A DNA stretch of 64,000 nt from a bacterium. Lineage in GTDB: Bacteria; Verrucomicrobiota; Verrucomicrobiia; Chthoniobacterales; Terrimicrobiaceae. The stretch is taken from positions 8,917 through 72,916 of the forward strand of contig JBAWVX010000001.1 in the NCBI GenBank assembly GCA_037147075.1. Reading direction: 5' to 3'. Shown here one piece after another: positions 32,420 to 54,335 of the stretch. Within the stretch, counting starts at the first letter, position 1, and each line of letters begins with the position of its first letter. A program made the translations under genes and the position numbers. A model generated the notes under the pieces. The model searched no databases. It saw only the letters and a program-made list of their open reading frames with translations, and was not told the origin of the DNA.

Positions 32420-35400
32420 CTAAGTTTGTTCTTCGTCGCTTTGATGGTCGTCACTATCTCCGCCACCATAGCCCAAGACTTCCACCGTAATAACCGAAGG
32501 CGTTTCTTCGACTTGCTGGCTGGGTGTCCGAGCTTGGTTGCTAACGGAATTGGCGGCAGAGTTGGCTGCTGCAGTGCTGGATGATCCTGAGGTGAGACCG
32601 CCAATATTTGGGGCCGCAACAGTCGGAGTCGAGGGGACCCCCGCTGTGGTGCCACCAGCGGAAATGTTATCGGCATTCAGAATCGAAACAGCGGCGATGA
32701 CAATATCTCCAGTGGAGCGAATGCCCGCTTCGCCCGCATCGACGGTGCCACCTGGCGCAATCAGGTTCACATTGCCCGGTTCTACTCCCTCCACAGAGGC
32801 CAAGACACCGATGCCGCCGCCAGTGGCAAGACCACCCAAATCCGTTTGGATATCTGCACTGGTGGTGTCGATCAAGACGCGAGTGGGGGGAGCTGTGACG
32901 ACTGTCTTCGCGGCTGAGCCTGCGGCGATGTCCCCTTCGGAAGACCAGATAGTGAGGTCTCCTCCGCGCAGGGTGAAGATACGACACTGGCCGATATCTA
33001 CATCGTTTTTGGTGAAGACGGAGACGGCGCCACCATATTCGGTCACTATTCCTGGCGGTGTGAGCGGATTTCCTGAAATGCTGGCGGCCATGGTGAGACC
33101 ACCGCCGGGTGACGCCAGGGTGATACCGCCGCCCTCTGTCGTGCGGATATCCCGAGAACGCGTAAAGATGTCGCCGGTCTGGGTTGCGGAGCCAAAGAGT
33201 GCCGTGATGGCCTCAAACCCTGCTGAGTAGCTTCCTGTTTGCGTGTATTCCTTTGCCGCTTCGGACAAAGAGGTGAAAAAGAGAGGAAGTTGATTAAGGT
33301 AATCTTGCTCGCTCGAGGGCGCAGAAGGCCCGAAAGAGTTCTTGGCAAGCGAGCTGCCCGCCAGACCGATAGCCGGGCCATCCTCTTTTCCACCCACGCC
33401 AGCCATCACGACCAACTGGGCCCCGCTGAAGGGCAGGTAAGGATTTCGGCTGTTTCCGATACTCGTAATGCCCGCTCCGCGTCCATCGGCAAGATTTTCT
33501 CCATTTCCGAGATCCAATGTCCTCCCTGCGAGAACTTCGAGGTAGCCAGAGCCCGAAATTTGGAGATCCCCCGCTAGAGCCGAGATTTTCTTGCCAGTCA
33601 CCGTCGTGCCACGAACTGTTAAATCCACATTTCCGAGGTTTAAATCAGACGCGGTGGTGCGGAGAAGGGAACTCTCACTATATGGAATGATATCTCGACC
33701 AGCGGAGATAATTGAAATATCGCTTGGACGGCTATTTTGAAGATAAAGCGCCACATCCGTGATATCGCGGGAGGCTGAGATACGACTTTGCTTTGCCGAA
33801 TACAAGGTCAGGCCGCTGATGTCGCTACCCAACGCATAGAGGTAAGCTGGAACGGAATCCGCCGAGTGGAGGATGCTCTCAGCGTGCCGGATTTTCTTTT
33901 TCGCTACAGCCGCCTCCACGCCAGCGTAAGAGCCCGTTTCGACAAAGTAATTATCCACAGGATCAAGGAGCAGGTTAGTCGGCGTTGATCTCAAACCTGC
34001 GAGGTTTCTGCCGTAGATGCTCTGTAAAGAATAGGGGCTAAACAAAGATGGAAGAAGGGCGGGATCTGCATCCGAGAGGTTCAGAGAGGCACTACTGAAT
34101 CCTGTCAGAGTCTTGGCCGAGTTCCGCCCGAGGGCATTCAAGCCCGAAATTGCTCCTGCCGCCAGAATCTCAAGACCGCCCTTTGCATTTGGATAGAGGC
34201 TCGCCTCCCCTGTGATATTAATACTGCCTCCAAATGATACGCTCTTGAGTGAAGGTGGAAGAGTGCCGCCTACAGTCGAAAACACCGTCATGGATCCTAT
34301 GTTTCCTTCGGCTAGGCGGATCCATGGCTGGGCAGCGGAAGGATTGGTGGAGCGGAAGAGATTTTGATTTCCGAGCCAAAAGGCTAGAATGCTTTGACCG
34401 CTAATACCAGTTTCGGAATCAGAACTCACTGCAGGTGAATCAAAAGTCGTGAAGCGATGTGTGATGCTTCCTCCAAGGGATTGGACATTCAGGCTCGAAT
34501 CGCTTGAATAGGTGTTGAAGTAGGTTTTATACCAGAACTTGTTTTGGAGTCCTTGTGGCAGCCAGAAGGCGTTGACTACCGGACCGAGCAGGATGTCCTT
34601 GCGAGCGGAAACATCGAAAGAGCTCTTTCCTGCATAGAGAGTCGTGGGGAGCCATGTCAGTTCGTCGCCATTTGACTTGGGAGATCGACTGGAGTTTGTC
34701 ACGATAGAACCAGCGGCAAAAATCTCTCCTGATCCCCGCTCGACGTAGTAAACCCCACCGCTGAGATCTCTGCCTGCGCGAACGGACAGATCTCCACCAC
34801 CGAGTTCCAGGAATTTGGTTGGATCGGGAGCAACTCTGTTGCCGCCAGAGAGACCGGCTGCTCTGGCGTTTGTCGGTATGAGAGCGTCCATATTAATGAT
34901 ATCCAAACCAGCATTCATCCGCAAGTTGCCTCCACCCAGTGTTCCAACTCCCTCGAAAAAGTTGCTGAAATCAATCCACCATGCCGTTGAGGCGGAAGCA
35001 TCAGTAATCGTTGCATCTCCGGCATCTACTCCTCCGACACCGAATTTTCCCGTTTCATCGACGTATCCCCGCCTGTAGAGCCAATTGCCTGGTAATTGCT
35101 TGGAGGAGTCGATGGTATCTACGGAGTTGACTACCGAGTAACGCCCGATTGTCCCAGCGGCATTCAAGAAAATATTTCCACCAGCCATCGACCATTGCGG
35201 TTGGTAATTTTGTTGAACTGGACCAAGTTGGGAAGTCTGAGACGGATTTCCGTTTTCAGCGACCACGACTGGGGTTACAAAGTCATCGGAAGAGTAAATG
35301 GAGTTGGGATTGGCAATTTTCGACCCAGCGGTATAGATCGAGGCGAATGGGTTCAGCAGCTTGATATCCCTGCCTGCGGCCAGATCGATGTTGCCTGTCC

Positions 35401-38400
35401 CTGTTCTGATGACTTGGAACCTTGTGAGATTTGATGTGCCGATAGCGCCTGCCGTTGTGTTTTGACTGCCTGACGGGTTGTAGGTTTTCCCAATGCGAAT
35501 GGATCCCTTTGTGGAATCCAGACCAGTTGATGATAAGACTTGAAGAACATTGGCAGCTCCAAGATCCGCCCCGGCTACAATACGGAATGACCAGGACTGT
35601 GTGTTCGTGGGCAGGTTGTTGTTGATGGCTGCCAGCGGGGAGAGCCACATTGAGGAGTATCCATTTGCGGCCGAGGGTGTCACAGCCGTGAAGCTGTCAC
35701 TGAGAGTGTTCCAGAAGACGACATTTCCCGGTGCGCGAAGAGTTAAGACGCCTGGAGCTGACTTGGGACCGAAGCGGAAGTCCGCAAGGTTCCAGTCGAG
35801 GCTCCAATTGGATGTGGATGTTCCGAGCGTAATGTCACCGTTCGCCGTGGTATTGATGATCTCGGCTCCTGGGGCAATGACAAGAATGGAAGAGAGGTTC
35901 TTCGGATCGCCCGTGCCGAGTAGGGCATCTCGCATGGCTGTATAGCCTGCCGTCGCGGATCCTGCGCTTCCTAAAAATTGCAAGCCATTGTCGTAGACTT
36001 GCCGTTGGGTGCTGCCAGCTGACGGGAGGGAGGAAAAGCTCGAGCGTGATCCCGTGATCTGTCCCGTGGCTCCGGTGACCGTGAAGACTTTGTAACCTTC
36101 AACTAAAATGCTGGATGCATCCAAGATATCGCCTTGAATTTGTGAGATAGAGACCCCAAGGCCAGCTCCAAAAGATTTCTGAGGTGCCCTGAGCTGGACT
36201 GTTCCGGTGAACTGCCCGTTGAAGGCACTCGATCCAACATCTGTGTAAGAACCGGAAATGTAATCTTCAACGGAGAGAATCATCTTCGAATCAGGCTGGA
36301 TGTCCAAGAGAGCCGTGGAGCTGAAAGATCCATCACTCTTCGAGGTGCCAGCGGACAAGGAGATGGAACCGCCTTTTCCTGCACTGTCGAAATGCTCGGC
36401 TGCAACTGTGAGCACGGAGTGCGGAAGAAGCGTAATGTTTTCCCGCGCTGAGAGGGCGATCTTCCCTCCAGTCGTTCCATGGGCATCAATCTGCCCTGCT
36501 ACGGAGATACTTCCCGAGTCGGCAGAGAGCGAGAAGGATTTGGCTTTCGAAATCCCCTCCACTAACACATCGCCAGTTCGAACCCGAAGATTGCGCTCGA
36601 GGTTGAATCCGCCGCTGTCAAGAATTTGGCTTAAATCTTGGAAAGAAGTCAGTGCAAGGGTGTCCAGAAGGAAGATACCGGAGTTGAAGTTCTCGAGAGA
36701 ACCGCCAGATAAAGTTCCCGCCGACTGGAAGGCTCCTGACGAAGAGATGGCCAGTCTTCCGGCGTTGCCTCCAAGCGGATGGGAGGCCACGGAAACTTGG
36801 CTCCCAGCCAAGAAGCTCACGCTACCTGCTTTTGCTGTCACATTTATCTCACCCGCATCGGTGTAGCGGGTTAAGTCATAAAATGTTTGCTTTGTCCCTG
36901 AAACATCGATGGTCCCACCAATGGAGGCGCCTCCATTGGTCGCGATGATTGATACAAGACCGCTTGGAAGTCGGATCGAGGAGTTTTGAACCACAGACGA
37001 ACCTTGGAGCGTGAGGCTGGCTCCCAATTCATTCGGAGTGGTGGAGGATGCACCAGTGGGTTGGATGTTGAGTTGTCCTGCTGCGATGATCGACTGCTTA
37101 GCCGCACGACTCCCTGTCAAGAGGGGTGTGGCTATCTCGAGATCGCCGGCAGTGAAGAATGTTCCCGTTCCGATGAAGGTGACACCAGAAGTTGCTTCGA
37201 GATGTGTTGTCTGGTAGCCGCCAATACTGAAGTTATTTTTGTCGAGAGTCAGGCTTTTTGACGCAATCTCAAAAGTTCCTGCCATGCCAGATGTCGAGTG
37301 CTTGAGTCCTGTGGAGGAAGTCGGATTTCCAAAGACGACCTCATTTGCAACCAAGCTCACCGTTCCTGATCCTTGGTTATAGCCACGGATGCTTAATTCT
37401 TGATCTGTTGTGGTGGAATCGTCTCCTCCTGCTTGGAGTGTCAACTTTTGCAAGGAATCCGAACCCATTGTTCCAGAGCCATAGATATCGATAACGCTGT
37501 AACTTGCTAAAAGCAGATTTTTCGACGACATCGCATCGGCCAAAAGATTGTCGCTAAGTGTCAGATGTGGTGCAACAAACGAGCCTGGTAGGGCGCCAAC
37601 TTGTGGGGCAAGCAGGATGCTCACTTGTCCGCTAATCATACTGAGATTTTCAGCTCGGAGATGACTGGTGGAATCGATCGAAGTTGCATACGTTGAGTCA
37701 AGAAGCACAGTCGCTCCTGAAACCGTCGACCCAGCGCCGAGGAAAAGGTTCGGTGATTTTGATCCCGTCAAGCCGCTTCTTGACGATGTAAAAAGAGGGT
37801 TGCTGCTTACCGCGAGGGCTACTCCATCGCCAGTGAGCGAAATCGGCAAAGAATTTTGCGAAAGACCACTTGAGAGAATTGAGGAACCATCTGCCAGTGA
37901 GAGGCTTTCTTTCGAAACGAGGATAATTTCAGGCCCTGAAAGAGGTTCTCCAGGATTTGAAACATTGATTGAATTGGAGCGAACCTCGACCTGGCTCACT
38001 GAAGAGGAGGATTGTCTTAAACCGCCTATAAGGATGCTCGAAGCTCCCCAGTTGGAGAGGATTCCTGAATTCAGCGAAACTCCAGTGGTCCCTCCCAATG
38101 AGGAACCTCCTGTAATGTTGATTTCGGCGAAACTCGCAATGTCAATTGCAGACCCTCGACCGGAAGAAAAAGGAGTCGTGAGAATCTGGCTGTTCATGCG
38201 CAAAGCCGAGTTCGCGCTGACAGCCAAATAGCCTGAATCTATTGGGAGTTCTTGGACATTATCTTGGTTGAGACGCGACGCTGCCTCTTTCATAAAAGTG
38301 GAGGCCTTAAATACTGTGTAGGAAGCTCGAGAGGCGATCACTTCAGGAGTGGCGATCTCGTAGAGGCTGCGCACAGCCGTGATTTCTTGAGCTTTGTTGA

Positions 38401-44315: not shown

Positions 44316-44380
44316 CGGTTTTTGGGTTTTGTTGAGGTTTGGTTTTGTGACGATTTTGTGACTTGCAAAATTATTTTTTC
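44316..44380. repeat. 65-nt gene-3'-flank repeat, copy downstream of the DUF1016 gene
   Basis: About 90% identical to 45611-45675, with a 31-nt perfect core TTTGGTTTTGTGACGATTTTGTGACTTGCAA (44338-44368 = 45634-45664). Both copies include the AAAAAATAA end of the preceding minus-strand gene. Confidence 0.85.
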
Positions 44381-45507: not shown

Positions 45508-45581
45508 AGATTTAAGACTTAAGTTTTAAGTGGCGGTGGGTGGATCGGGATGACCTAATTGACTTTGGTGACCTTATTGAC
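45508..45581. repeat. leader repeat set upstream of the orphan tpsA start
   Basis: AAGATTTAAG (45508-45517), TTTTAAGTGGCGG (45524-45536), and 13-mers TGACCTAATTGAC (45551-45563) and TGACCTTATTGAC (45569-45581), 18 nt apart. The same set occurs at 46549-46609. Confidence 0.8.
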
Positions 45582-45610
45582 GGTGGGTGGGTCGTGAAGG
45601 GTTATGATCG

Positions 45611-45675
45611 GCTGGTTTGGGGTTTGGTTGAGATTTGGTTTTGTGACGATTTTGTGACTTGCAATTTTATTTTTT
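45611..45675. repeat. 65-nt gene-3'-flank repeat, copy downstream of the PPIase gene
   Basis: See 44316-44380. Contains two GTCACAAAA half-sites on the minus strand. Confidence 0.85.
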
Positions 45676-46545: not shown

Positions 46546-46548
46546 GTG

Positions 46549-46609
46549 AAGATTTAAGTTTTTAAGTGGCGGGTTTGGTGACCTTATTGACTGGGTTGAC
46601 CTTGTTGAC
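46549..46609. repeat. leader repeat set upstream of the PPIase gene
   Basis: AAGATTTAAG (46549-46558), TTTTAAGTGGCGG (46560-46572), TGACCTTATTGAC (46579-46591) and TGACCTTGTTGAC (46597-46609), 18-nt period. An 18-nt perfect match TTTGGTGACCTTATTGAC is shared with 45564-45581. Confidence 0.8.
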
Positions 46610-46664
46610 GGGGACCTTTTTCCTGGGTAGTCCGTGGATTTTCATCCTTCTGAGTTCATCCTTT

Positions 46665-47300
46665 TTACTTTTTGACCGCGTTGGCGGGGATGCGGGAGTC
46701 GGTGAGTTTGTCGGCGAGATCTTGGACGAGGTTTTGGAATTTCACACGTTGAGTGGCGGTGAAGGGTTCGCGAGCGAGGATGGCGTCGCCGAGGCCGAAT
46801 TTATGGTAGCGGTCGAGGATTTCCATGCCGGCTTGATACATCTCGATGTTTTTTTGTTGCTCTTCTTGGACTTTGCGTTCGAGTTCGATCCGTTTGGCGT
46901 CGAGTTGTTGGCGTTGTCCCTCGCGCTTGGATGCGAGTTTGGCGACTTCACCGTAGGATTTTTTCCATTTGGCCAGAGCGGCATTGAGTTCCACAATCGA
47001 GCCGTCGCGGTCGGCGATTTTTTTGTTGAGATCGGCGATCATATTGGTGGAGGTGTTCCTCTCGTTGGCAAGGTCCTTGGTGAGGGCGTCGGCTTTGGCT
47101 GCGAGTTCTGTGGCCTTGGCCTCGGCGGCGTATTGGGCCGCCTGGGCATTCGCCAGATCGGTTTGGGCCGCTCGGAGTTTGAGCATGGAGTCCTTGAGGG
47201 CTTCACGGAACTTTGCAGTGGGGTCTTCTTCGGCGGCGCGCAAGGCAGGCGCGAGAAGAACAGCGGCTGCGACCAAGAGGGCGTAGGTTTTGATTTTCAT
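46665..47300 (-). CDS. secreted coiled-coil protein (possibly DUF3450/TtpB-like TonB-system accessory protein)
   Basis: 211 aa with signal peptide MKIKTYALLVAAAVLLAPALRA, then heptad-rich A/K/E/Q sequence. The family assignment is only an impression. Confidence 0.6.
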   Translation of the reverse strand: MKIKTYALLVAAAVLLAPALRAAEEDPTAKFREALKDSMLKLRAAQTDLANAQAAQYAAEAKATELAAKADALTKDLANERNTSTNMIADLNKKIADRDGSIVELNAALAKWKKSYGEVAKLASKREGQRQQLDAKRIELERKVQEEQQKNIEMYQAGMEILDRYHKFGLGDAILAREPFTATQRVKFQNLVQDLADKLTDSRIPANAVKK

Positions 47301-47307
47301 GTGGCTG

Positions 47308-49602
47308 TTAGAATTTGGAGTTGATCTCGAAGTAGAAGATGTTCGTGTCGTATTGTGGACCAGTGAGGCTGTCCGAGCCCATCCAGCGGGCGCCTATGTA
47401 GACGTTCTCGGAGAGGGAGAGGAAGCCGGCGACGGTGAATCCTTGCATGTTGGTGCCGCCACCGCCGAAATCGGAGTCGGTGAAACCGTCCACGACCGAG
47501 TCGGAACCGATCCAGCGGTAGCCCACGGAGAGGAGCCAGTCCCAGCGTTTGGCCAGAGCCTGAGTGCCCACACGAAGGTCAACGAACCATCCGTAGGGGC
47601 TGCCATCGAACACGCCGATGTCGGTGAGGTTGTTGGAATCAATCGCACTGCGGTTGTTCACAGCGATTGCATTGATGTCTTGCTTGTTGAAAGCGAGGTT
47701 TTGCACATACTCACCGACCAGCGAGACGCGCACGGGCTCGAAGCCATCGTAGTCAATCTGGGAGGTGAGGGCGAGTTCGGTGAATTTGGTGGCGAGGCCG
47801 TAGTATTGCCACTGGTTGATTGCGCCGTAGTCGTTGCTGGCATCCGGCGTGATGTTTCGGATGGCCATGTAGGTGTTGCCCTTTTGGGCGAACGAGGGGC
47901 GGCTGTTATCCGTGTTGCTCGCATCGTTCGCAGTGAGCGGAGTGTAAGGATCGGAGAGTTTGCCTTCGATATTATAGAAGTAGTAGAGGGCTGCAGCGGT
48001 CTTCCACTTGATGTCGTCGCCGATCTTCCACTCGAAGCCGGCTTGTCCACCGAAGAGGTATTTGTCGTAGCTGGCGAATTTTGCTGGCTGGTTGGAGGAG
48101 AAGTTGAAGTCGGTATTGTAGACAACAAACGCGCCGCCCGTGCCGAAGAGGGAGAAGTTTTCGGTGAGGTTGGCCTTGGTCGTGAGGGCGGTGCCGTCGA
48201 AGCCGAGGTCGTCATCCCACGTCAGACGGGTGCTGAAGAAAGGATTTTCAAAGCGACCGACCCATGCGGTGGACTTCACGGCGTCCGTGATGTTGAAGTC
48301 ATAGCGCAGGAAGGCGCGGTCGAGCCAGATGGCGTATTTGCTGAAGTTGCCGCCTTGGCCTTGGGTGGCGGAGTTGGCGACGCCCATGCCTTGGTTGGTG
48401 GAGACGGGCGTGTTGTTGCTGCCGGTGGCGACGCGGAAGCCCGAAGAGAAGTTCTCGCTCATGGCGAAGTCCATGCCGAAGCGGGCACGGAGGAGATACT
48501 GGTTGCGGTTCTGGTCAACATTCAGCTGAGGCGCGAACTGGGTGCCGGTGGTGTCGAAGGGAGCGCCGGTGTTGATGGCGTTGAAATTCGGGAAGGCCCC
48601 GGAGGCATCGTTGCCGGTTGGGAAGAAGGTGCCTGAATAGCGGACTCGCAGATCGAAGGCGGCTTTGCCGTTTTCCACCCATTTTGGGAGGCGGAGAGCT
48701 GCATTGATTTCGCGCGGTGTGCGGTCTGTGGCGAGTTCGAGTTTGATTTCCTCCTTGATCTGGTCCTTCACCGGCTGGGGTATGTGGGTCACACGGATGT
48801 CCTCGGGTGAGGATGGCGGGAGGTTGGAGCCTGCCGGAGCCGATGAGGCTGCTACCTGAACTGCGGCAGCCTGCGCTATGGCAACCATATCGGTTTGACT
48901 CTGTGCGCGAACGGCTTCCGCCTCGGCTTCCGCTTGGCGGATCATCTCGTTTGCTTCCTCCTGGCTCAGGATGCCGCGTTTCACGAGTTTCTGGATGAGG
49001 TTGACCGTGACATTGGCCGTGGGAGTGCTTGGGCTGGTGGGCAGCGGAGATTCCACGGTGGTTGCTTGTCCAGATGCGGTGGCGGATGGATTGCTGGCCT
49101 CCGAATGGGATTCACGGATTGTTGACTTGAGTGGCTTCACCTCTGGCGAGGGAGTTGGTTTTGGTGCCGAGGCGGCAGTGGCCTCATCCATTTTTGGGGA
49201 TGGTGCTGGAGTCGGTGAAGCCGCTGGCGCTGCGACGTCCACTGGTCCAGACAAGGAAAGTGCAACTGTTTGCTCGGCGGGTTGGACAGGTGTCGATGAA
49301 ACAGCTGCTGTGGGAGTGGAGGAACTCTCTGTTGAGGTGCTGGCAGGCGTTTGCGGAGTGGCCGTGGGGGTTGGGGATGACGAGGCTTGCGGCGCAGGGG
49401 AATCCGGGGCTTTCGTCGGTGGGGTATTTTTGTAGAGCGAATTCCACTGACCGGAGTCGGGCTGGGTGGAATTTTGGGCATATTCAAAAACCATTTTGTT
49501 TTTCGCTGGTTCTTTGATGCTATAGTCCTGTGCGCCGAGCGGCGTGACAGCCGCCAAGAGCGTGGCTGTCGAGAGATGGCGGATGGTTATGGGCAGTCTC
49601 AT
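47308..49602 (-). CDS. porin-like outer-membrane beta-barrel with long Pro/Thr/Ser-rich N-terminal region
   Basis: Start at ATG 49602 (MRLPITIRHLSTATLLAAVTPLGAQ signal). About 250 aa of PT/S-rich low complexity, then a helix LIQKLVKRGILSQEEANEMIRQAEAEAEA. Alternating beta-strand pattern follows, ending in aromatic NIFYFEINSKF. The upstream 61 codons of the listed ORF overlap tonB. Confidence 0.75.
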   Translation of the reverse strand: MRLPITIRHLSTATLLAAVTPLGAQDYSIKEPAKNKMVFEYAQNSTQPDSGQWNSLYKNTPPTKAPDSPAPQASSSPTPTATPQTPASTSTESSSTPTAAVSSTPVQPAEQTVALSLSGPVDVAAPAASPTPAPSPKMDEATAASAPKPTPSPEVKPLKSTIRESHSEASNPSATASGQATTVESPLPTSPSTPTANVTVNLIQKLVKRGILSQEEANEMIRQAEAEAEAVRAQSQTDMVAIAQAAAVQVAASSAPAGSNLPPSSPEDIRVTHIPQPVKDQIKEEIKLELATDRTPREINAALRLPKWVENGKAAFDLRVRYSGTFFPTGNDASGAFPNFNAINTGAPFDTTGTQFAPQLNVDQNRNQYLLRARFGMDFAMSENFSSGFRVATGSNNTPVSTNQGMGVANSATQGQGGNFSKYAIWLDRAFLRYDFNITDAVKSTAWVGRFENPFFSTRLTWDDDLGFDGTALTTKANLTENFSLFGTGGAFVVYNTDFNFSSNQPAKFASYDKYLFGGQAGFEWKIGDDIKWKTAAALYYFYNIEGKLSDPYTPLTANDASNTDNSRPSFAQKGNTYMAIRNITPDASNDYGAINQWQYYGLATKFTELALTSQIDYDGFEPVRVSLVGEYVQNLAFNKQDINAIAVNNRSAIDSNNLTDIGVFDGSPYGWFVDLRVGTQALAKRWDWLLSVGYRWIGSDSVVDGFTDSDFGGGGTNMQGFTVAGFLSLSENVYIGARWMGSDSLTGPQYDTNIFYFEINSKF

Positions 49603-49607
49603 GGGTA

Positions 49608-50306
49608 TTAGTTGGGTCGAGTGGCTTTCAATCGCATGACGATGGGCATCGGCATGCCTTCCGGTGGGGGAGCCTGCATTTGCAGACCGGTGAGGATTTC
49701 GTTGCGTAGGGCGGCATCTGTGGCGGGGTCGCCACTGGAGCCGGAGATGGTGGCACGGGTCACGCGTCCGGTTGCGTCCAGCCAAATGCGGGCGGTGACA
49801 TTGAGAGCCGCAGACTTTGTTTTTTTATGGTTGCGGAGAGCTTGGACGACGGAGCCTTGGACTTGCGAGGCATAACCTCCATATTTGGAACCCTTGCCGC
49901 CTTTTCCTGTGCCCGTGCCACCAATCATGCCGCCTCCACCTCCTTTGGCGAGGCCGAAGGCATCAGGGCCGTTGCCCTCGATATTCGTGCCAAGAGGAGC
50001 AGGTTCAGGCGCGCCTTGCGGCTCAGGTTGCGGAGCTTCCTCTGGTGTGAATTTTTCTTCCTTTGGCGTATCCGGTTCTGGTGGTTGCTCCTTTGGTGGT
50101 GGCGGAGGAGGTGGTGGTGGCGGAGGAGGTGGTGGCGGAGGAGGCAGGGAAATCATGACCGGACCAGAAGATTTTTTGGCTGGAGCTGACTTCGGTGCGC
50201 CCATGAAGAAAACTCCCAACACCACGATGAGGGCACCACCACCAAGAATGATCTTGATTTTGTGCTTCGCAAAGAAACTGGGCTCGTCTTCCTCTTCGTC
50301 CGGCAT
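49608..50306 (-). CDS. tonB: energy transducer TonB
   Basis: 232 aa with N-terminal TM IKIILGGGALIVVLGVFFMG, a run of 17 Pro, then (EP/KP)-rich spacer. C-terminal TonB-like domain YASQVQGSVVQAL..ARIWLDATGRVTRATISGSSGDPATDAAL. Confidence 0.85.
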   Translation of the reverse strand: MPDEEEDEPSFFAKHKIKIILGGGALIVVLGVFFMGAPKSAPAKKSSGPVMISLPPPPPPPPPPPPPPPPPKEQPPEPDTPKEEKFTPEEAPQPEPQGAPEPAPLGTNIEGNGPDAFGLAKGGGGGMIGGTGTGKGGKGSKYGGYASQVQGSVVQALRNHKKTKSAALNVTARIWLDATGRVTRATISGSSGDPATDAALRNEILTGLQMQAPPPEGMPMPIVMRLKATRPN

Positions 50307-50315: not shown

Positions 50316-50714
50316 TTATTTCGGGCCTTGCGTGGCGAGACCGATTTGTTTGATGTCGAGGCGTCCCAGCACGTCGAGAACTTCCATGACCATCATGTAT
50401 TGCGTGGCGCGGTCTCCGCGGACCACCACGGGGAATTCCGGGATCTTTGATTTGTGCTCACTGAGCTTGGCCTCGAGTTCGGCGATCGTGACGGGCACGG
50501 TATCCAGGAAGAGTTTGCCTTCGTTGTTAACAGTGATCGATTTGCCTTTCGGCCCACCGAGAGCGGGAGCTTTGCTGCCTTTGGGCAGATCGACCTTAAC
50601 TCCCTGAACCCCCGCCGTGGTCATGATGATAAAAATCAGGAGCAGCACGAGGTAGAGGTCCACCATCGGGGTGACGTTGATGTCGTCGTAGGATTTGTCG
50701 TCGCCGGCGTCCAT
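50316..50714 (-). CDS. exbD: biopolymer transport protein ExbD/TolR
   Basis: 132 aa with DINVTPMVDLYLVLLLIFII TM and periplasmic domain LFLDTVPVTIAELEAKL..VVVRGDRATQYMMVMEVLDVL. Confidence 0.9.
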   Translation of the reverse strand: MDAGDDKSYDDINVTPMVDLYLVLLLIFIIMTTAGVQGVKVDLPKGSKAPALGGPKGKSITVNNEGKLFLDTVPVTIAELEAKLSEHKSKIPEFPVVVRGDRATQYMMVMEVLDVLGRLDIKQIGLATQGPK

Positions 50715-50720
50715 GATGCG

Positions 50721-52673
50721 TTATTTGTGTTTGACAAGGCGGTCCATGATGGCCGCGTTCTCGTCGCCTTTGGTTTCTTCGTAGCGGGCGGCCTCCTCCG
50801 GGGTGCGGATTTGGCGGATCGGAACGGTGAGGGCGCCATCGCCGGGAGTTGGGTAGAACTCGGCGACTTTGGCGATGAATTCATCGATGAATACCTGCAT
50901 CGCCGACACTGTGTTTTTGATGCTGGTATTCAAGAAGCTATACATAAACAGAGCAGGAATCGCGACGAGCAAGCCAACCGTCGTCGCCAAAAGCGCGCTC
51001 GCGATACCCGGAGCGATCGAGTTCACATCCACCTCGCCGGATTTCGCGATGATGGCGAAGGTGATCATAACGCCCACAACGGTTCCGAGCAGACCCACAT
51101 AGGGTCCGCCGGCGATACTGACCGTGAGGTAAACGAGGCCGTTGCCGAGGCGGTGTTGTTCGTGCACAAGGGCTGCGTCCAACGCGGCCCGGATGGCTTG
51201 AATGGATCTGGCCGAAAGCCCCTGACCTTTGTTTTTGCCAAAGCCAAGGCGGTGGCGGATTTCCTCCGAGCCAACGTGGTAGATGTGGTAGAGCGGGGAG
51301 TCCGCAAGGAGTTTGAGGGCTTTCTTGGTCGTCTTGCCGCCGAATGTTTTGGCGGACTCGGGATTATCGAGGTTGATCGCGGTGAGGTCGGTCGAGACAT
51401 CTTTCCAGAGGCGTTGAAATGCCACGTTACCTTTTTTGATCTTGCCCAGGCTGATGAATTTCATGACTGCAACGGACCAGCCGGCAATCATCATGATGAC
51501 GCAAAGTCCGATAGCCATCCAGCCGTCGAACATCATGTTGTGCGCAATGTCACCGAATAGGGCGAGGTGCTCCATGACCCCGCTGTGGCCTCCGCCAGCG
51601 CCGCCTTCGCCCTCGCCGAGAGCGACGAGTTTGCCGCTGGCATCGTTGCCAGCTTGGCCGGTGTAGGCCAGTTGAACCCAGCCTGCGGGGCGGGCGGTTT
51701 TTGAGAGGCTGAACTCATCGATTTCGCCAACGAGTCCGTTTTTGCCATCGGATTCGGCACCTAGCGTCGCGTCGCCCGCGATTGCAGGAAGAGCGGCTGC
51801 CACGGAGGAGTATTCCTTGCCATCCACATACAGCTTTGTTGTGGATCCATCGGAGACCACGGCAAGATGTTTCCAGACATTAGGTGCGACGGGGTCTGCT
51901 GGTGAGGATTTGGAAGTGCCGGAAGCGGACTTGATCACAACAACCGGAGCGCCGGATTGGAAAACAACTTGGAATCGGCCCGAGTCGTCTCCCCAATCAA
52001 AGAGGACGCCTTTTTCGCTCAAGGTGGATTGTTTTACCCATGCCGAGAGGGTGAACGGTTGACCGGCATCGGCGCGCAGAGTGGCGGATCCGGGAATTTT
52101 GGCTGCGGTGTTTCCGAGAAGCCGGAGGCCAGGCCCGATGAGAGCGCCTTCGGAGAGGGTGCCACCGGAGGTTGCATTGTTGGCGTTTTTCGTGACGTCT
52201 TTGGGCGTTGCCGCTGTGAAGTTGTAAGTCAGGATGGTGTCGGCATCGTAGGCCGCGAGAGGATCAGCAGCTTGATCGGCCGTAATTTTGGGGTTTCCGC
52301 TGTAGAGCCAGATTTTGGTTTGAGCACCGGGCTTGATATCGGGAATTTTCACCCAGACGAAGCCCTCGTTCATCAAGGCATCCCATTTTTCCACGCGTGA
52401 ATCGAGAGGGGTCTTGTCATCTTCTGTCACAAAGCGAATGTCGGTGCCGTCCTCTTTGGCTGTGGAAAAGTCGAAGTTTCCCTGGTGCAGGCGCAGCAGG
52501 ATGGTGGCGGTGCCGATGGGTTCGGTGATTTCGAATCCGGTCTTGCTGGTATCGATGGTTATGGATTTGCGCGCGGTCCATTCTTTGTTCCACCAAGCAT
52601 GGGATGTCGCTTGGACGGATAGAAGAGCCGTGGCGGCGAGAAGAGTTGTTCGGATGAATGCGGTTTTTTTCAT
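50721..52673 (-). CDS. DUF2341 + LamG/ConA-like + MotA/TolQ/ExbB proton-channel fusion protein
   Basis: 650 aa with signal peptide, then WWNKEWTARKSITIDTS..GTDIRFVTEDDKTPLDSRVEKW..VWVKIPDIKPG..IWLYSGNP (DUF2341-like). LamG-like FTLSAWVK..LYVDGKEY..GEIDEFSLS follows, then ExbB channel GGPYVGLLGTVVGVMITF..IAPGIASALLATTVGLLVAIPALF. Confidence 0.85.
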   Translation of the reverse strand: MKKTAFIRTTLLAATALLSVQATSHAWWNKEWTARKSITIDTSKTGFEITEPIGTATILLRLHQGNFDFSTAKEDGTDIRFVTEDDKTPLDSRVEKWDALMNEGFVWVKIPDIKPGAQTKIWLYSGNPKITADQAADPLAAYDADTILTYNFTAATPKDVTKNANNATSGGTLSEGALIGPGLRLLGNTAAKIPGSATLRADAGQPFTLSAWVKQSTLSEKGVLFDWGDDSGRFQVVFQSGAPVVVIKSASGTSKSSPADPVAPNVWKHLAVVSDGSTTKLYVDGKEYSSVAAALPAIAGDATLGAESDGKNGLVGEIDEFSLSKTARPAGWVQLAYTGQAGNDASGKLVALGEGEGGAGGGHSGVMEHLALFGDIAHNMMFDGWMAIGLCVIMMIAGWSVAVMKFISLGKIKKGNVAFQRLWKDVSTDLTAINLDNPESAKTFGGKTTKKALKLLADSPLYHIYHVGSEEIRHRLGFGKNKGQGLSARSIQAIRAALDAALVHEQHRLGNGLVYLTVSIAGGPYVGLLGTVVGVMITFAIIAKSGEVDVNSIAPGIASALLATTVGLLVAIPALFMYSFLNTSIKNTVSAMQVFIDEFIAKVAEFYPTPGDGALTVPIRQIRTPEEAARYEETKGDENAAIMDRLVKHK

Positions 52674-52682: not shown

Positions 52683-54335
52683 TTACAGTTCTGCGGAGAT
52701 GCTGAAGGAAAAGAGTGGGTGGTAGGCTTCGGAAGGCGACTGGGTGATCTGTGGGATGCCGATGAAGAAATCTCCATTGACATGATTAAGCAGTCGCAGG
52801 CTGGTTCCGAAACCGTAGCTCCAGAGATTGAAGGTGGAGGTTTGCTCGGGCAGGGGATCGTTCAGCATCGCGTAGCCGGCATCGATGAAGACGAAAAACC
52901 TCCATTCATTGCCTTTCGGAAGCCAGCCTAGGAGTGACGGCGTGCGGAATTCCAGTGTTCCAGCGATGGCATTGTCGCCAGTGACCACCGACTCGAGGTA
53001 GCCACGCACGGTGGATTGCCCGCCGAGGCTGTATTGCTCTGTGTCCACGAGCGGATTCGCCGTCGCCTGGCCCTGGACCTCGCCAAAGAGTTGGAAATCC
53101 CAAGGCAACTTTTGGGTGTGGGAGAGGCTGCCGCGCAGGTAGAAAAAGTTTGCGTTGGCGTTGTAGCGACGATTGTCAAAATCAATCGCCTCCTGGGCAC
53201 CTGTTCCACGGAAGCAGAATGTGACTCCGGCGCTCAACTCCGTCTCGTAGTGTTTGCCGATCGAGCTGGCATTGTAATTGAGGGAGACTGGCCAATAGGT
53301 GAGGGGACTCGAGATGGTTTGGTTGCCGACCACGAGGTCCTGAGAGAAGTCTTTATAATCGATTCCTAGGCTGGCGGAGTGGTAGAAGCCGGTCTTAGCT
53401 GGGAGATTGAAAAGGAAGCGGCCTCCGTAGATTTCTCCATTGCCGAGCGAGTCGGTGCCGCCCAGAGTGGAAACCTCGCTGTTCTGACGCGTGGCTTGCA
53501 ACATGAGCGACAGCCAGTCGATGGCTGGTGTGCGGGCGATGTAATATCCCGAGTAAATGAGAGCGTCGCTCGGCCGCTGAGGCGCGATTTGAAATCCCAC
53601 GCCGATCGTGTGGCCCAGTTGCCAAAGATTATCGTAGCGAGCCGAGGCATCGAGACGGAGAGGAGTCGTATTGGGACTGTATCGGTTGTTCAGCTCGACA
53701 CTTCCGTGCAGCGGAAATTTGTCTTTCACTGTCAGGTCGACATCCACCGTTCCAGGGGTTTTACCGACGGCCAGGCTTGGGGTCACTTGGAGGTCGGCCG
53801 TTTGATTCAGCGCAATAATGTCCCGCTGCACATCGTTGAAATTCGGCACGGTGCCCTCCGCGAGTGCTGGTGCCATTTTTTTGATTTTATCGACATCGAA
53901 AAACCGGGAGCCTTTGACGCGCAGGCGACCGACAGTGGCCTCCGTGACTTGGAGGACTATCACGCCGGTGTTGATTCCTTGCGGCGGCACGGAGACTGAA
54001 ACCGTTTGGTAGCCGGCTTCATGGTATGCCTCCTCCAATGCCCCGCGTGCATTCTCGACATCCTCTGGTGTGCGACCTGGGCCGAGGTGTTTGTAGACTG
54101 CTTTGTCAACTGACGCAGTCGGTAGCTTTGTCGCTCCCACTACGCGGAATTCGCGAATCAAAAACGTTTGAGGAGGCTCCGGGTCGACAACAGGAGGTGG
54201 AGCTTCGCTCAAGGAAGCGTCTGGCTCTTGGGCGGACGAGTGGCTCGATATCATGATGCACACGGTCAGAATCCCGTGAATCAAGAGATATCTGAGTTGC
54301 GTGGTTTGGATGAGCCGGATCATTGGTCTGTGCAT
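52683..54335 (-). CDS. TpsB transporter (ShlB/FhaC/HecB family, POTRA + 16-strand barrel)
   Basis: Start at ATG 54335/54323 gives signal MHRPMIRLIQTTQLRYLLIHGILTVCIMISSHSSAQ. POTRA region FLIREFRVVGATKLP..VLQVTEATVGRLRVKGSRFF and barrel LSLGGQSTVRGY ending in F. The first 179 codons of ORF 52683-54872 were dropped. Confidence 0.88.
   Translation of the reverse strand: MHRPMIRLIQTTQLRYLLIHGILTVCIMISSHSSAQEPDASLSEAPPPVVDPEPPQTFLIREFRVVGATKLPTASVDKAVYKHLGPGRTPEDVENARGALEEAYHEAGYQTVSVSVPPQGINTGVIVLQVTEATVGRLRVKGSRFFDVDKIKKMAPALAEGTVPNFNDVQRDIIALNQTADLQVTPSLAVGKTPGTVDVDLTVKDKFPLHGSVELNNRYSPNTTPLRLDASARYDNLWQLGHTIGVGFQIAPQRPSDALIYSGYYIARTPAIDWLSLMLQATRQNSEVSTLGGTDSLGNGEIYGGRFLFNLPAKTGFYHSASLGIDYKDFSQDLVVGNQTISSPLTYWPVSLNYNASSIGKHYETELSAGVTFCFRGTGAQEAIDFDNRRYNANANFFYLRGSLSHTQKLPWDFQLFGEVQGQATANPLVDTEQYSLGGQSTVRGYLESVVTGDNAIAGTLEFRTPSLLGWLPKGNEWRFFVFIDAGYAMLNDPLPEQTSTFNLWSYGFGTSLRLLNHVNGDFFIGIPQITQSPSEAYHPLFSFSISAEL

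What the first reader, a model, noticed from the sequence alone, without database searches (positions are those of the whole stretch)
32420..54335. Two-partner secretion pair split by an embedded TonB-ExbB-ExbD motor, extra barrel, coiled-coil protein and PPIase: candidate PMF-coupled giant-adhesin machine
Seen: on the minus strand tpsB (52683-54335) is followed after 9 nt by a DUF2341-LamG-ExbB fusion, then exbD after 6 nt, tonB after 9 nt, a 764-aa porin-like barrel after 5 nt, and a secreted coiled-coil protein after 7 nt. A parvulin PPIase follows after 119 nt. Beyond an apparently secondary DUF1016 insertion comes the 3888-aa tpsA. Established: type Vb (two-partner) secretion is normally a two-gene tpsB/tpsA unit, and its outer-membrane step is regarded as independent of inner-membrane energy. 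TonB-ExbB-ExbD transmits proton-motive force to outer-membrane proteins. Inference: the spacing implies one transcription unit. The motor, second barrel, periplasmic chaperone and coiled-coil spacer may therefore form a dedicated envelope-spanning apparatus that exports, anchors, retracts or moves the giant beta-helical fibre. This is conceptually like PMF-driven movement of giant adhesins in gliding bacteria. I know of no described TPS system with an embedded TonB module.
Basis: partly seen in the sequence, partly recalled or inferred. Interest (0 to 1): 0.85.

Follow-up and report, generated by a model that had tools for sequence, protein, structure and literature searches.

The report
Adhesin secretion genes with own motor
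A giant secreted fibre protein and its outer-membrane exporter sit in one gene block with a private proton-driven TonB-type motor, a porin-like barrel, a long helical protein and a folding helper. The block is real and conserved across bacterial phyla, but it is the same still-unexplained locus already catalogued in Pseudomonas aeruginosa (PdtA/PdtB with ExbB2-ExbD2-TonB4-PA0696 to PA0699).

Summary
The linkage is not chance. In 80 species-level genomes holding a relative of the barrel (Verrucomicrobiota and Alphaproteobacteria), wherever enough flank was present:
- tpsB, the DUF2341-LamG-ExbB fusion and exbD were found in 50/50, and tonB in 49/50.
- The coiled-coil gene was found in 76/76.
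- The PPIase was found in 33/67.
- A tpsA within 10 kb was found in 30/35, always in the same order.

The claim of no precedent is wrong. The same block, in the same order, occurs in a Pseudomonas contig and a Klebsiella plasmid, with the published PA0691-PA0701 layout. Llamas et al. (2009) already noted the tpsB-exbBD-PA0696 association. In the literature I could search, the Ton module's function is still called uncharacterised.

New details:
- The barrel models as a porin-type barrel with a helical periplasmic stalk (OmpM1/DcaP-like), not a plugged TonB-dependent transporter.
- TpsB has no room for an N-terminal plug helix or a TonB box.
- A 17-nt motif precedes both tpsB and tpsA.
- DUF1016 is a secondary insertion.

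Verdict: a new member of a known but mechanistically unexplained kind. PMF-coupled TpsA export or anchoring stays plausible and untested.

The parts
52683..54335 (-). tpsB: Omp85-type TPS transporter (POTRA_2 plus ShlB barrel), first gene of the block
   Evidence: Pfam match. The closest solved relative is CdiB 6WIM, E 6.7e-16. The Pseudomonas L092 TpsB is 37.5% identical, E 1e-105. TpsB sits upstream of the ExbB fusion in 50/50 related loci.
50721..52673 (-). Signal peptide, periplasmic DUF2341 and LamG domains, then a C-terminal ExbB/TolQ-type proton-channel domain
   Evidence: Pfam match. The TolQ and ExbB equivalog models both hit but stay below their cut-offs. It is equally close to solved TolQ and ExbB structures. 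The fusion is present in 50/50 loci.
50316..50714 (-). exbD/tolR-type subunit, with the transmembrane Asp (D19 in INVTPMVDLYLVLLLIF)
   Evidence: Pfam ExbD, E 1.2e-24. TolR and ExbD models hit below cut-off. The sequence is shown.
49608..50306 (-). TonB-like protein: N-terminal transmembrane helix, poly-proline spacer, TonB_2 C-terminal domain
   Evidence: Present in 49/50 loci.
47308..49602 (-). Porin_5 outer-membrane barrel: signal peptide, short conserved N-terminal motif, Pro/Thr-rich linker, long helices, porin-type barrel ending in Phe
   Evidence: Pfam E 7e-175. AF2 model with pLDDT 77.6 and pTM 0.71. Foldseek best hits are OmpM1, MOMP, DcaP and OmpF-type porins.
48775..48795 (-). IRVTHIP, the window's copy of the family motif G-x-[VI]-R-V-[PT]-Y-[VI]-P-E, lying between the stalk helices and the barrel. 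Candidate TonB-contact strand (inference only).
   Evidence: The motif was found in 110/114 close and 76/111 distant family members. It lies in a low-confidence segment of the model with no secondary structure.
46665..47300 (-). Secreted 211-aa helical protein with a conserved C-terminal REPF...LVQDY motif; homologue of the 209-218-aa protein at the PA0697 position
   Evidence: Present in 76/76 loci. Conserved across phyla. Pseudomonas and Klebsiella homologues at E 3e-22 and 3e-20. The AF2 single-sequence model shows two helices of about 65 residues each, pLDDT 70.6.
45667..46545 (-). Periplasmic parvulin-type PPIase, an accessory member
   Evidence: Pfam Rotamase_2/3. Present in 33/67 loci. 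Pseudomonas homologue at E 1e-45.
44371..45396 (-). DUF1016/YhcG PDDEXK nuclease gene: a secondary insertion, not part of the system
   Evidence: Pfam match. Absent in L001, L002 and L004. Flanked by direct repeats 44298-44399/45594-45695 (102 nt, 80%) and 44064-44088/45467-45491 (25 nt, 100%).
32420..44086 (-). tpsA: 3888-aa exoprotein with an N-terminal TPS (NPxG-type) domain and C-terminal DUF3739
   Evidence: A homologous tpsA lies within 10 kb in 30/35 fully flanked loci.
54372..54388 (-). GTAACAGAATCGTAACA: 17-nt two-half-site motif, 36 nt upstream of the tpsB ATG
   Evidence: Three exact matches to GTMACA-N5-GTMACA in 64 kb, against 0.01 expected. Conserved in L001 and L004. A relaxed form lies upstream of tpsB in 18/53 loci, against about 0.01 expected per region.
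44346..44362 (-). GTCACAAAATCGTCACA: the same motif about 260 nt upstream of the tpsA ATG. A duplicate at 45642-45658 lies in the repeated spacer upstream of DUF1016.
   Evidence: The motif lies at the same place in L001, L004 and L041.

Best explanation
What it is (high confidence). This is the verrucomicrobial (Chthoniobacterales/'Spartobacteria') version of a conserved multi-gene system. Its proteobacterial form is the P. aeruginosa phosphate-starvation locus pdtA-phdA-pdtB-exbB2-exbD2-tonB4-PA0696-PA0697-PA0698-PA0699. The conserved core is TpsB, a DUF2341-LamG-ExbB fusion, ExbD, a TonB-like protein, a Porin_5 barrel and a secreted helical-hairpin protein. A parvulin is present in about half of the loci. 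A DUF3739-class TpsA usually lies next to the core, here downstream rather than upstream.

How it most likely works (inferred). The ExbB*/ExbD complex converts proton-motive force into movement of the TonB-like protein. The target of TonB is probably not TpsB, which has no N-terminal extension. The more likely target is the periplasmic N-terminal stalk of the porin-like Porin_5 protein, perhaps through the conserved VRV(T/P)YVPE strand. The helical-hairpin protein would act as a periplasmic spacer or adaptor.

I think the module most likely serves the TpsB/TpsA pathway on the export side. It could assist, gate or arrest passage of the roughly 3900-residue chain, or hold or release its DUF3739 C-terminus. 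The parvulin would act as a periplasmic chaperone.

My estimates: locus identity about 0.9, one functional system about 0.8, export or anchoring role about 0.4. The overall confidence given is a compromise between these.
For: Shown by tools:
- Domains and spacing.
- Conserved order in 80 species. TpsB, the ExbB fusion and ExbD are in 50/50 loci, TonB in 49/50, the coiled-coil gene in 76/76, the PPIase in 33/67 and TpsA in 30/35.
- The block persists where the barrel is only 26-31% identical.
- A Pseudomonas contig (L092) and a K. pneumoniae plasmid (L088) carry TpsB, DUF2341-LamG-ExbB, ExbD, TonB, Porin_5, a 209-218-aa protein, YbjN and a PPIase. In L092 a LysR gene follows directly. In L088 one further hypothetical gene comes first, as PA0700 does in PAO1. 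All seven window module proteins match in order, E 1e-20 to 1e-109.
- The barrel has a porin-type fold with long N-terminal helices.
- The TpsB mature N-terminus is 5-25 unconserved residues. The alignment to CdiB starts at chain residue 32.
- One 17-nt motif lies upstream of both tpsB and tpsA.

From papers:
- PA0690-PA0699 are co-induced by sigma-VreI and phosphate starvation (PMC7035377; PMC2729926).
- PA0696 and PA0698 are among the proteins most enriched under phosphate limitation (PMC9769906).
- In R. palustris and Janthinobacterium, tpsA genes sit at three PUMA3 regulatory clusters and tpsB-exbBD-PA0696 at a fourth.

From my own knowledge: the B. pertussis parvulin Par27 binds unfolded FHA, a precedent for a parvulin serving a TpsA.
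Against: - No experiment links the Ton module to PdtA/TpsA secretion. P. aeruginosa tonB4 (PA0695), PA0696, tpsA and tpsB mutants showed no change in VreI-induced zebrafish virulence. That neither links nor separates them.
- Type Vb secretion is regarded as needing no external energy (PMC9355242 abstract), and FhaC-type systems work without such a module.
- TonB systems canonically energise uptake. The Pho-regulon context and phosphate-related neighbours in some loci fit an uptake role at least as well.
- The proposed TonB-contact motif is an inference from conservation and low model confidence. It was missing from about a third of the distant family members.
- I could not align directly against PAO1 proteins. 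The link runs through a fluorescens-group Pseudomonas contig whose layout is identical to the published one.
Confidence: 0.55

Rival explanations
1. Uptake machine (HxuCBA logic). The surface TpsA captures or liberates a nutrient, most plausibly a phosphorus-containing macromolecule. The Ton-type motor opens or drives the Porin_5 channel to import it.
For: - TonB systems are uptake energisers (established knowledge).
- HxuA/HxuB plus the TonB-dependent HxuC is a precedent for TPS and TonB-dependent uptake in one operon (PMC5422565).
- The Pseudomonas locus belongs to the PhoB/VreI phosphate-starvation regulon, next to the Hxc type II system and the LapA phosphatase.
- Related loci have phosphate-related neighbours: alkaline phosphatase (L003); a PstS-like binding protein, a phosphoesterase and type II secretion genes (L086); a 'phosphate transport regulator'; and PhoU.
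- The barrel has a solute-porin fold.
- The TpsA has a weak CBM_5_12-like segment.
Against: - A porin-type barrel with no plug domain has no known need for, or way of using, TonB energy.
- Phosphate-related neighbours were rare among the 80 genome loci, and none is in this window.
- No substrate is known.
- The always-present partner is TpsB, with tpsA sometimes elsewhere. This fits a secretion platform slightly better.
Confidence: 0.3
2. Tol-Pal-like envelope tether. The motor, the TonB/TolA-like protein, the stalked porin and the helical hairpin form an energised inner-to-outer-membrane connection. It stabilises or locally remodels the envelope where the giant fibre is extruded, without acting on TpsA itself.
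For: - The ExbB and ExbD parts score higher against TolQ/TolR models than against ExbB/ExbD models, though all are below cut-off.
- They are equally close to solved TolQ and ExbB structures.
- The TonB-like protein also hits TolA weakly.
- The gene order motor-motor-TolA-like-outer-membrane protein-coiled-coil protein recalls tolQRA-(tolB)-pal-cpoB (my own knowledge).
- The best structural match of the barrel is OmpM1, an outer-membrane attachment porin with a periplasmic stalk.
Against: - There is no TolB or Pal-like OmpA-domain lipoprotein in the block.
- No peptidoglycan-binding domain was detected in the barrel or the helical protein.
- It does not explain the strict linkage to TpsB.
Confidence: 0.12
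3. Force-generating adhesin machine. The motor retracts or moves the beta-helical fibre for surface motility, like the Agl-Glt or GldLM/SprB systems.
For: There is only an architectural analogy: a TolQR/ExbBD-type motor, a TonB-like periplasmic protein, outer-membrane barrels and a giant surface adhesin encoded together. The TonB-like protein gives a weak sub-threshold hit to GltJ, through its proline-rich region.
Against: - No other gliding component is present.
- The system occurs in many taxa not known to glide, including Pseudomonas, Klebsiella plasmids, Bradyrhizobium and Serratia.
- The GltJ hit is far below its cut-off.
Confidence: 0.05
4. Chance juxtaposition of an ordinary TPS pair and an ordinary TonB system.
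For: None beyond the fact that both gene kinds are common.
Against: TpsB, the ExbB fusion and ExbD were found in 50/50 loci and the coiled-coil gene in 76/76. The order is the same across Verrucomicrobiota, Alpha-, Beta- and Gammaproteobacteria.
Confidence: 0.01

Closest known systems
P. aeruginosa PdtA/PdtB locus with ExbB2-ExbD2-TonB4-PA0696-PA0697-PA0698-PA0699 (sigma-VreI/PhoB regulon)
   Same: The gene families and order are the same: TpsB, DUF2341-LamG-ExbB, ExbD, TonB-like, Porin_5, a roughly 210-aa secreted helical protein and a parvulin PPIase, plus a roughly 4000-aa TpsA with DUF3739. This was shown through a Pseudomonas contig and a Klebsiella plasmid with the published layout and through the papers.
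   Different: - tpsA lies downstream of the module here, not upstream of tpsB.
- There is no phdA/transposase-like gene, no YbjN (PA0698) and no LysR neighbour.
- The barrel carries an extra N-terminal motif and a Pro/Thr-rich linker of about 170 aa.
- A DUF1016 gene is inserted.
- Regulation by phosphate or an ECF sigma factor is unknown here.
- I could not compare directly with PAO1 sequences.
H. influenzae HxuCBA (TPS pair plus a TonB-dependent receptor in one operon)
   Same: A TpsA/TpsB pair is encoded together with an outer-membrane protein that depends on TonB energy (PMC5422565).
   Different: - HxuC is a classical plugged TonB-dependent transporter and uses the cell's general TonB. 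Here the barrel is porin-like and the locus carries its own ExbB/ExbD/TonB.
- HxuA is about 100 kDa, not about 400 kDa.
- The substrate here is unknown.
Canonical two-partner secretion (FhaB/FhaC, CdiA/CdiB)
   Same: The TpsA has an N-terminal TPS domain. The TpsB has POTRA domains and an Omp85/ShlB barrel. CdiB is its closest solved relative.
   Different: - The genes are not adjacent.
- Six to seven conserved extra genes lie between them.
- TpsB appears to lack the N-terminal H1 plug helix and linker.
- TpsA has a DUF3739 C-terminus.
Tol-Pal system
   Same: Both have a TolQ/TolR-like motor, a TolA/TonB-like periplasm-spanning protein, an outer-membrane partner and a secreted coiled-coil protein in one operon (operon comparison from my own knowledge).
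   Different: There is no TolB and no Pal. The scores are below the equivalog cut-offs. The ExbB-like subunit carries a periplasmic lectin-like domain of about 360 aa.
Stalked porins OmpM1 (Veillonella) and DcaP (Acinetobacter)
   Same: These are the best structural matches. Both are porin barrels preceded by a long periplasmic helix.
   Different: - There is no SLH domain.
- Sequence identity is only 11-15%.
- The TM-score normalised to the query is about 0.4, because the query barrel is larger.
- Oligomeric state was not tested.
Myxococcus Agl-Glt gliding machinery (from my own knowledge)
   Same: Both combine a TolQR-type motor, TonB-like periplasmic proteins, outer-membrane barrels and a surface adhesin.
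   Different: There is no homology beyond the motor superfamily. No other Glt components are present. The host range includes non-gliding bacteria.

Membership tests
Two-partner (type Vb) secretion system | TpsA with an N-terminal TPS/haemagglutination-activity domain | tested here: met
   TIGR01901 matches at aa 156-234, E 4.6e-18 against a cut-off of 29.1 bits. Pfam PF05860 was not reported for the window protein but is on record for its orthologues in L001 and L002.
Two-partner (type Vb) secretion system | TpsB with ShlB-type POTRA domain(s) and an Omp85-superfamily barrel | tested here: met
   POTRA_2 at 50.7 bits and ShlB at 65.7 bits, both above their cut-offs. CdiB 6WIM matches at E 6.7e-16.
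Two-partner (type Vb) secretion system | N-terminal H1 helix and linker of TpsB that plug the barrel (FhaC and CdiB structures; my own knowledge) | tested here: inconclusive
   The mature N-terminus is about 22 residues with 9 prolines in the window. It is 5-25 unconserved residues in relatives. The CdiB alignment starts at chain residue 32. No structure was predicted for TpsB.
Two-partner (type Vb) secretion system | TpsB-dependent secretion of TpsA | not testable with these tools
   Papers describe PdtA/PdtB as a functional TPS system. I did not read the primary paper.
TonB-ExbB-ExbD system | ExbB/TolQ-type channel subunit and an ExbD/TolR-type subunit with the transmembrane Asp | tested here: met
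   MotA_ExbB at 94.9 bits and ExbD at 87.2 bits. Asp19 lies in the predicted transmembrane helix. All NCBIfam equivalog scores are below their cut-offs, so this is neither a canonical ExbB nor a canonical TolQ.
TonB-ExbB-ExbD system | TonB: N-terminal transmembrane anchor, proline-rich spacer, C-terminal TonB domain | tested here: met
   TonB_2 at 28.6 bits (cut-off 22) and TIGR01352 at 33.9 bits (cut-off 27.1). The poly-proline run and the transmembrane segment are visible.
TonB-ExbB-ExbD system | A cognate TonB-dependent transporter: 22-strand barrel, plug domain and TonB box | tested here: not met
   No plug or TonB-dependent-receptor Pfam domain was found in the block. The barrel models as a porin-type barrel of about 16-18 strands whose best hits are OmpM1, DcaP and OmpF. 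There is only an inferred contact motif.
Tol-Pal system | TolB and the Pal lipoprotein alongside TolQRA | tested here: not met
   None of the nine proteins has a TolB, OmpA or Pal domain.
PdtAB / TonB4 / PA0696-PA0699 locus type | Gene content and order: tpsB, exbB2, exbD2, tonB4, porin, secreted helical protein, (YbjN), PPIase, with a DUF3739 TpsA | tested here: met
   The order is the same, and all shared proteins are homologous to those of Pseudomonas L092 and Klebsiella L088. YbjN is absent here and in the verrucomicrobial loci, and present in some alphaproteobacterial ones. PAO1 sequences themselves were not available.
PdtAB / TonB4 / PA0696-PA0699 locus type | Induction by phosphate starvation through PhoB and sigma-VreI | not testable with these tools
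   No ECF sigma or anti-sigma pair adjoins the block, and no Pho genes flank it in the window. A conserved 17-nt motif precedes tpsB and tpsA. Its GTnAC half-sites cannot be assigned to a regulator family.

The most novel reading that the evidence does not exclude
The DUF3739 class of two-partner secretion systems is not energy-independent. A dedicated Ton/Tol-like proton-driven motor, acting through a stalked porin and a periplasmic helical hairpin, would gate, power, arrest or release the passage of the roughly 4000-residue TpsA through a TpsB that lacks its own plug helix. That would be the first inner-membrane-energised type V secretion system, conserved from Verrucomicrobiota to Pseudomonas.
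Probability: 0.3. Interest if true: 0.85.

Novelty: new member of a known kind. Interest (0 to 1): 0.5.

Why it matters
The locus type has been in the P. aeruginosa literature since 2009. It is a phosphate-starvation and virulence-associated regulon, yet its TonB4 module is still described as uncharacterised.

This analysis adds four things:
- TpsB is never separated from the motor in the genomes sampled, and the block is ancient and spans phyla.
- The partner barrel is a stalked porin, not a TonB-dependent transporter.
- The helical protein at the PA0697 position is a conserved core member.
- TpsB offers no obvious TonB-contact region, which points to the porin stalk.

This turns a vague gene association into specific experiments that can be done in a tractable organism. 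If the motor proves necessary for TpsA export, retention or release, the textbook view of type V secretion as self-powered would need a qualification. If it proves to be an uptake route, it would be a new class of TonB-coupled porin. The window itself adds only one more, slightly rearranged, copy.

Tried and rejected
- The exact-sequence look-up of the window barrel found nothing on record.
- The first, very diverse barrel alignment (A2) had no stretch conserved enough to scan genomes with. I rebuilt it around the FTDSDF..GGTN motif.
- Cluster-member look-up of ten distant representatives gave no taxonomy or names.
- A profile search of the barrel against PDB sequences found nothing meaningful. 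Fold comparison was needed.
- I tried to test TonB contact by AF2 on a paired alignment of TonB C-terminal domain, linker and barrel N-terminus chimeras.
- I looked for the vreA-vreI-vreR (PUMA3) genes upstream of the R. palustris BisB18 locus and saw only transposase-like remnants. That is an ORF reading only.
- A count of phosphate-related neighbours across the 80 loci found few: alkaline phosphatase in 2 and a secretin in 3. The phosphate link rests on Pseudomonas papers and a handful of loci.
- The promoter and terminator scan was uninformative. There was one promoter-like site, inside tpsA, and terminator-like sites were not above the shuffle expectation.
- Rfam found no family in the window.
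- The fold search with the helical protein gave only generic helical hairpins (HlyD, AhlC, PcsB), all with E > 0.07.
- The Burkholderia chromid hit had no annotation table.
- I considered calling the 17-nt motif a Pho box and rejected that. The GTnAC half-site is internally symmetric, so direct and inverted repeats cannot be told apart.

Full report
**Observation**

On the minus strand of the window the ORF list gives the following genes:

| Gene | Coordinates | Size |
|---|---|---|
| tpsB | 52683-54335 | 550 aa |
| ExbB fusion | 50721-52673 | 650 aa |
| exbD | 50316-50714 | 132 aa |
| tonB | 49608-50306 | 232 aa |
| barrel | 47308-49602 | 764 aa from the ATG |
| secreted helical protein | 46665-47300 | 211 aa |
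| PPIase | 45667-46545 | 292 aa |
| DUF1016 | 44371-45396 | 341 aa |
| tpsA | 32420-44086 | 3888 aa |

The gaps are 9, 6, 9, 5, 7, 119, 270 and 284 nt.

- tpsB: POTRA_2 plus ShlB.
- ExbB fusion: DUF2341, Laminin_G_3 and MotA_ExbB.
- exbD: ExbD.
- tonB: TonB_2 and TIGR01352.
- Barrel: Porin_5, E 7e-175.
- PPIase: parvulin rotamase domains.
- DUF1016 gene: DUF1016_N plus YhcG_C.
- tpsA: the TIGR01901 N-terminal haemagglutinin domain and a C-terminal DUF3739.

ExbD keeps the transmembrane Asp (D19). The ExbB fusion, the barrel, the helical protein and the PPIase all start with signal-peptide-like sequences, and the barrel ends in Phe. Upstream lie a small membrane-protein ORF, rpoD and dnaG. Downstream of tpsA lie a Sel1-repeat gene and a PEP-CTERM protein gene.

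**Is the linkage more than chance?**

The barrel family is sizeable. It has 1829 clusters at 50% identity with E <= 1e-3.

A genome scan with a barrel alignment found at least 562 relatives. The best 80 species were kept:
- Verrucomicrobiota: Chthoniobacterales/Terrimicrobiaceae, Verrucomicrobiales, Opitutaceae and Puniceicoccaceae.
- Alphaproteobacteria: Acidocella, Acetobacteraceae, Zavarzinia, Methylocella, Bradyrhizobium, Rhodopseudomonas palustris BisB18 and Ancylobacter.

The closest relative is 'Spartobacteria bacterium UBA5019', at 92% identity.

I searched the six-frame ORFs of these loci with the window proteins. Among loci with enough flank:

| Gene | Loci with the gene |
|---|---|
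| tpsB | 50/50 |
| DUF2341-ExbB fusion | 50/50 |
| exbD | 50/50 |
| tonB | 49/50 |
| helical protein | 76/76 |
| PPIase | 33/67 |
| tpsA within 10 kb | 30/35 (28 downstream, 2 divergent upstream) |

The order is always the same.

The sample is biased towards closer relatives (41% identity or more). Spot checks further out still found the block:
- 31% identity, metagenome contigs L084 and L086.
- 37% identity, a K. pneumoniae plasmid.
- 26.5% identity, an Aquabacterium plasmid.

The exceptions were a Methylomagnum plasmid, which has the porin next to a TPS pair and phoU but no listed Ton genes (its gene table is incomplete), and an IS-ridden remnant in Leclercia.

The TPS genes and the Ton-type module belong together.

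**It is not unprecedented**

Papers on P. aeruginosa list the following as one co-induced sigma-VreI/phosphate-starvation block (PMC7035377):
- PA0690 pdtA
- PA0691 phdA
- PA0692 pdtB
- PA0693 exbB2
- PA0694 exbD2
- PA0695 tonB4
- PA0696, a 'putative outer membrane porin'
- PA0697, with a signal peptide and colicin-like helical homology
- PA0698, YbjN
- PA0699, a PpiC-type PPIase

Llamas et al. 2009 (PMC2729926) had already pointed out that TPS, ExbBD and PA0696 homologues travel together in Pseudomonas, Burkholderia, R. palustris and Janthinobacterium. They also reported that tpsA, tpsB, tonB (PA0695) and PA0696 mutants did not change VreI-induced virulence in zebrafish.

PA0696 and PA0698 are among the proteins most enriched under phosphate limitation (PMC9769906).

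I could not fetch PAO1 sequences, so I tied the window to this locus indirectly:
- A K. pneumoniae plasmid locus (L088) and a fluorescens-group Pseudomonas contig (L092) both carry TpsB, DUF2341-LamG-ExbB, ExbD, TonB, Porin_5, a 209-218-aa protein, YbjN and a PPIase. L092 has a transposase-like gene upstream. A LysR gene follows the PPIase in both, separated in L088 by one hypothetical gene. This is the PA0691-PA0701 layout.
- Every shared window protein matches its counterpart. For L092 the phmmer E-values are TpsB 2e-104, ExbB fusion 6e-109, ExbD 8e-42, TonB 2e-27, barrel 1e-92, helical protein 3e-22 and PPIase 1e-45.

Full-text searches found no paper that assigns a function to the module. 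The 2017 TPS review lists PdtA only as 'unknown function' and does not mention ExbB.

**Anatomy that bears on mechanism**

(i) The barrel.
- An AF2 model of residues 198-764 has pLDDT 77.6 and pTM 0.71. It has long N-terminal helices, one of about 37 residues, and about 16-18 strands.
- Foldseek places it among porins. The best hits are OmpM1 of Veillonella (an outer-membrane attachment porin with a periplasmic stalk), Campylobacter MOMP, DcaP (a porin with a coiled-coil stalk), OmpF/OmpC, OprB and AlgE.
- It is not a plugged 22-strand TonB-dependent transporter.

(ii) A candidate contact motif in the barrel.
- Between the helices and the barrel lies the motif G-x-[VI]-R-V-[PT]-Y-[VI]-P-E, which reads IRVTHIP in the window.
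- It sits in a low-confidence segment of the model with no secondary structure.
- It is found in 110/114 close and 76/111 distant family members.
- Its position and strand-like character make it a candidate for beta-strand pairing with the TonB C-terminal domain.

(iii) A lineage-specific addition. Verrucomicrobial barrels also carry a short motif right after the signal peptide (K-[ILM]-V-[FI]-[DE]-Y-A) and a Pro/Thr-rich linker. Proteobacterial barrels lack both.

(iv) TpsB.
- It has only 5-25 unconserved residues between the signal peptide and POTRA1.
- Its alignment to solved CdiB begins at chain residue 32.
- It therefore seems to lack the H1 plug helix and linker. It offers no conserved N-terminal TonB box.

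(v) The motor.
- It is as close to TolQ/TolR as to ExbB/ExbD, and below every equivalog cut-off.
- Its periplasmic N-terminus carries about 360 aa of DUF2341 plus LamG.
- A recent survey of MotAB relatives lists such DUF2341 appendages as being of unknown function (PMC12505986).

(vi) The 211-aa protein.
- It is conserved from Verrucomicrobiota to Pseudomonas, with a C-terminal REPF...LVQDY motif.
- A single-sequence AF2 model (pLDDT 70.6) shows two helices of about 65 residues each.
- It has no specific structural relatives.

(vii) A shared upstream motif.
- GTMACA-N5-GTMACA occurs exactly three times in 64 kb, against 0.01 expected, and always on the minus strand.
- The sites are 36 nt upstream of tpsB, about 260 nt upstream of tpsA, and in the duplicated spacer upstream of DUF1016.
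- A relaxed form lies upstream of tpsB in 18/53 loci, against about 0.01 expected per region.
- This argues that tpsB-to-(PPIase) and tpsA are at least two co-regulated units rather than a single transcript.
- The GTnAC half-site is internally symmetric, so I cannot say whether it is a PhoB-type direct repeat or a palindromic operator.

**The DUF1016 gene**

- It is missing between the PPIase and tpsA in L001, L002 and L004.
- It lies in the lowest-GC 2-kb bin within the reported interval, 0.494 at 44001-46000, tied with 0.493 at 40001-42000.
- It is bracketed by a 102-nt repeat at 80% identity (44298-44399 and 45594-45695).
- It is also bracketed by a perfect 25-nt repeat that includes the tpsA start (44064-44088 and 45467-45491).

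**Mechanism**

What the evidence shows:
- A conserved, co-located and apparently co-regulated set of envelope proteins.
- A proton-channel motor with an intact key residue.
- A TonB-like transducer.
- A stalked porin.
- A long periplasmic hairpin.
- A chaperone-type PPIase.
- A TPS pair whose transporter lacks its usual plug region.

What I infer. The motor acts through the TonB-like protein on the porin stalk, and the assembly serves the TpsA pathway. I lean (about 0.4) to an export-side role: assisting, gating or arresting passage of the chain, or retaining or releasing its DUF3739 end. My reasons:
- TpsB is the invariant partner, while tpsA can sit elsewhere, as in R. palustris.
- A periplasmic parvulin is a known type of TpsA chaperone (Par27; my own knowledge).
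- TpsB lacks its own plug.

The main rival (about 0.3) is uptake on the HxuCBA pattern. It is favoured by the canonical role of TonB, the phosphate-starvation regulon, the porin fold and scattered phosphate-related neighbours.

A Tol-Pal-like tether (about 0.12) and a motility or retraction machine (about 0.05) are less likely. Chance juxtaposition is excluded.

**Verdict**

It is, however, another member of a locus type already annotated and discussed in Pseudomonas, not a new kind of system. The open question of what a private Ton-type motor does for a two-partner secretion system is genuine and testable in P. aeruginosa. I score interest 0.5 and novelty 'new member of a known kind'.

Noticed in passing
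window 54372-54388, 44346-44362, 45642-45658 (all minus strand); also 27950-27966 with one mismatch: The 17-nt motif GTMACA-N5-GTMACA occurs only upstream of tpsB, upstream of tpsA and in the duplicated spacer: 3 hits against 0.01 expected. A one-mismatch copy overlaps the start of the PEP-CTERM protein gene at 27951. Relaxed forms lie upstream of tpsB in 18/53 related loci. The regulator is unknown. It looks Pho-box-like in spacing, but the half-site is symmetric.
   Followed up: partly
window 44064-45695: The DUF1016/YhcG nuclease gene is an insertion bracketed by a duplicated PPIase-tpsA spacer: a 102-nt repeat at 80% identity and a 25-nt perfect repeat that includes the tpsA start codon. 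The first 25 nt of tpsA, and its upstream motif, therefore occur twice.
   Followed up: yes
window 49474-49497 (barrel residues 36-43) and the following Pro/Thr-rich stretch to about 49011: Verrucomicrobial Porin_5 proteins carry a conserved K-[ILM]-V-[FI]-[DE]-Y-A motif right after the signal peptide, followed by a low-complexity Pro/Thr/Ser linker of variable length. Proteobacterial members lack both. Its function is unknown. It could be a second tethered contact strand.
   Followed up: partly
window 52683-54335 (TpsB N-terminus, about 54170-54230): TpsB of this locus type has almost no sequence between the signal peptide and POTRA1. It therefore seems to lack the H1 plug helix and linker seen in FhaC and CdiB.
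   Followed up: partly
window 38786-38857 (TpsA residues 1744-1767): TpsA has a weak CBM_5_12-like carbohydrate-binding segment (E 1.9e-4, below the Pfam cut-off). The same weak hit is on record for the orthologue in L002.
   Followed up: no
window 54575-54904, minus strand: A 109-aa ORF with one predicted transmembrane segment lies between rpoD and tpsB and has no family match. The tpsB upstream context differs in the closest relatives, and L001 has an AraC-type regulator there.
   Followed up: no
L003/L013, L079, L086, L089, L091 (related loci): Phosphate-related genes sit next to the cluster in several distant relatives: alkaline phosphatase, a PstS-like binding protein, a phosphoesterase, type II secretion genes, a 'phosphate transport regulator' and phoU. 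This echoes the Pseudomonas Pho regulon. They are rare among the 80 genome loci and absent from this window.
   Followed up: partly
L084, L086, L087 (related loci): In some distant versions a Wza-like Poly_export/SLBB gene follows the module. In L084 it is followed by glycosyltransferase and exosortase (EpsH) genes, which hints at a link with exopolysaccharide or PEP-CTERM export. The window has a PEP-CTERM protein gene 3.4 kb beyond tpsA.
   Followed up: no
window 44001-50000: There is a strong positive GC skew (0.22-0.28) and negative AT skew on the plus strand across the PPIase-to-tonB stretch. It probably reflects the Pro/Thr/Ala-rich low-complexity coding on the minus strand (the barrel linker and the TonB poly-proline run).
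   Followed up: no
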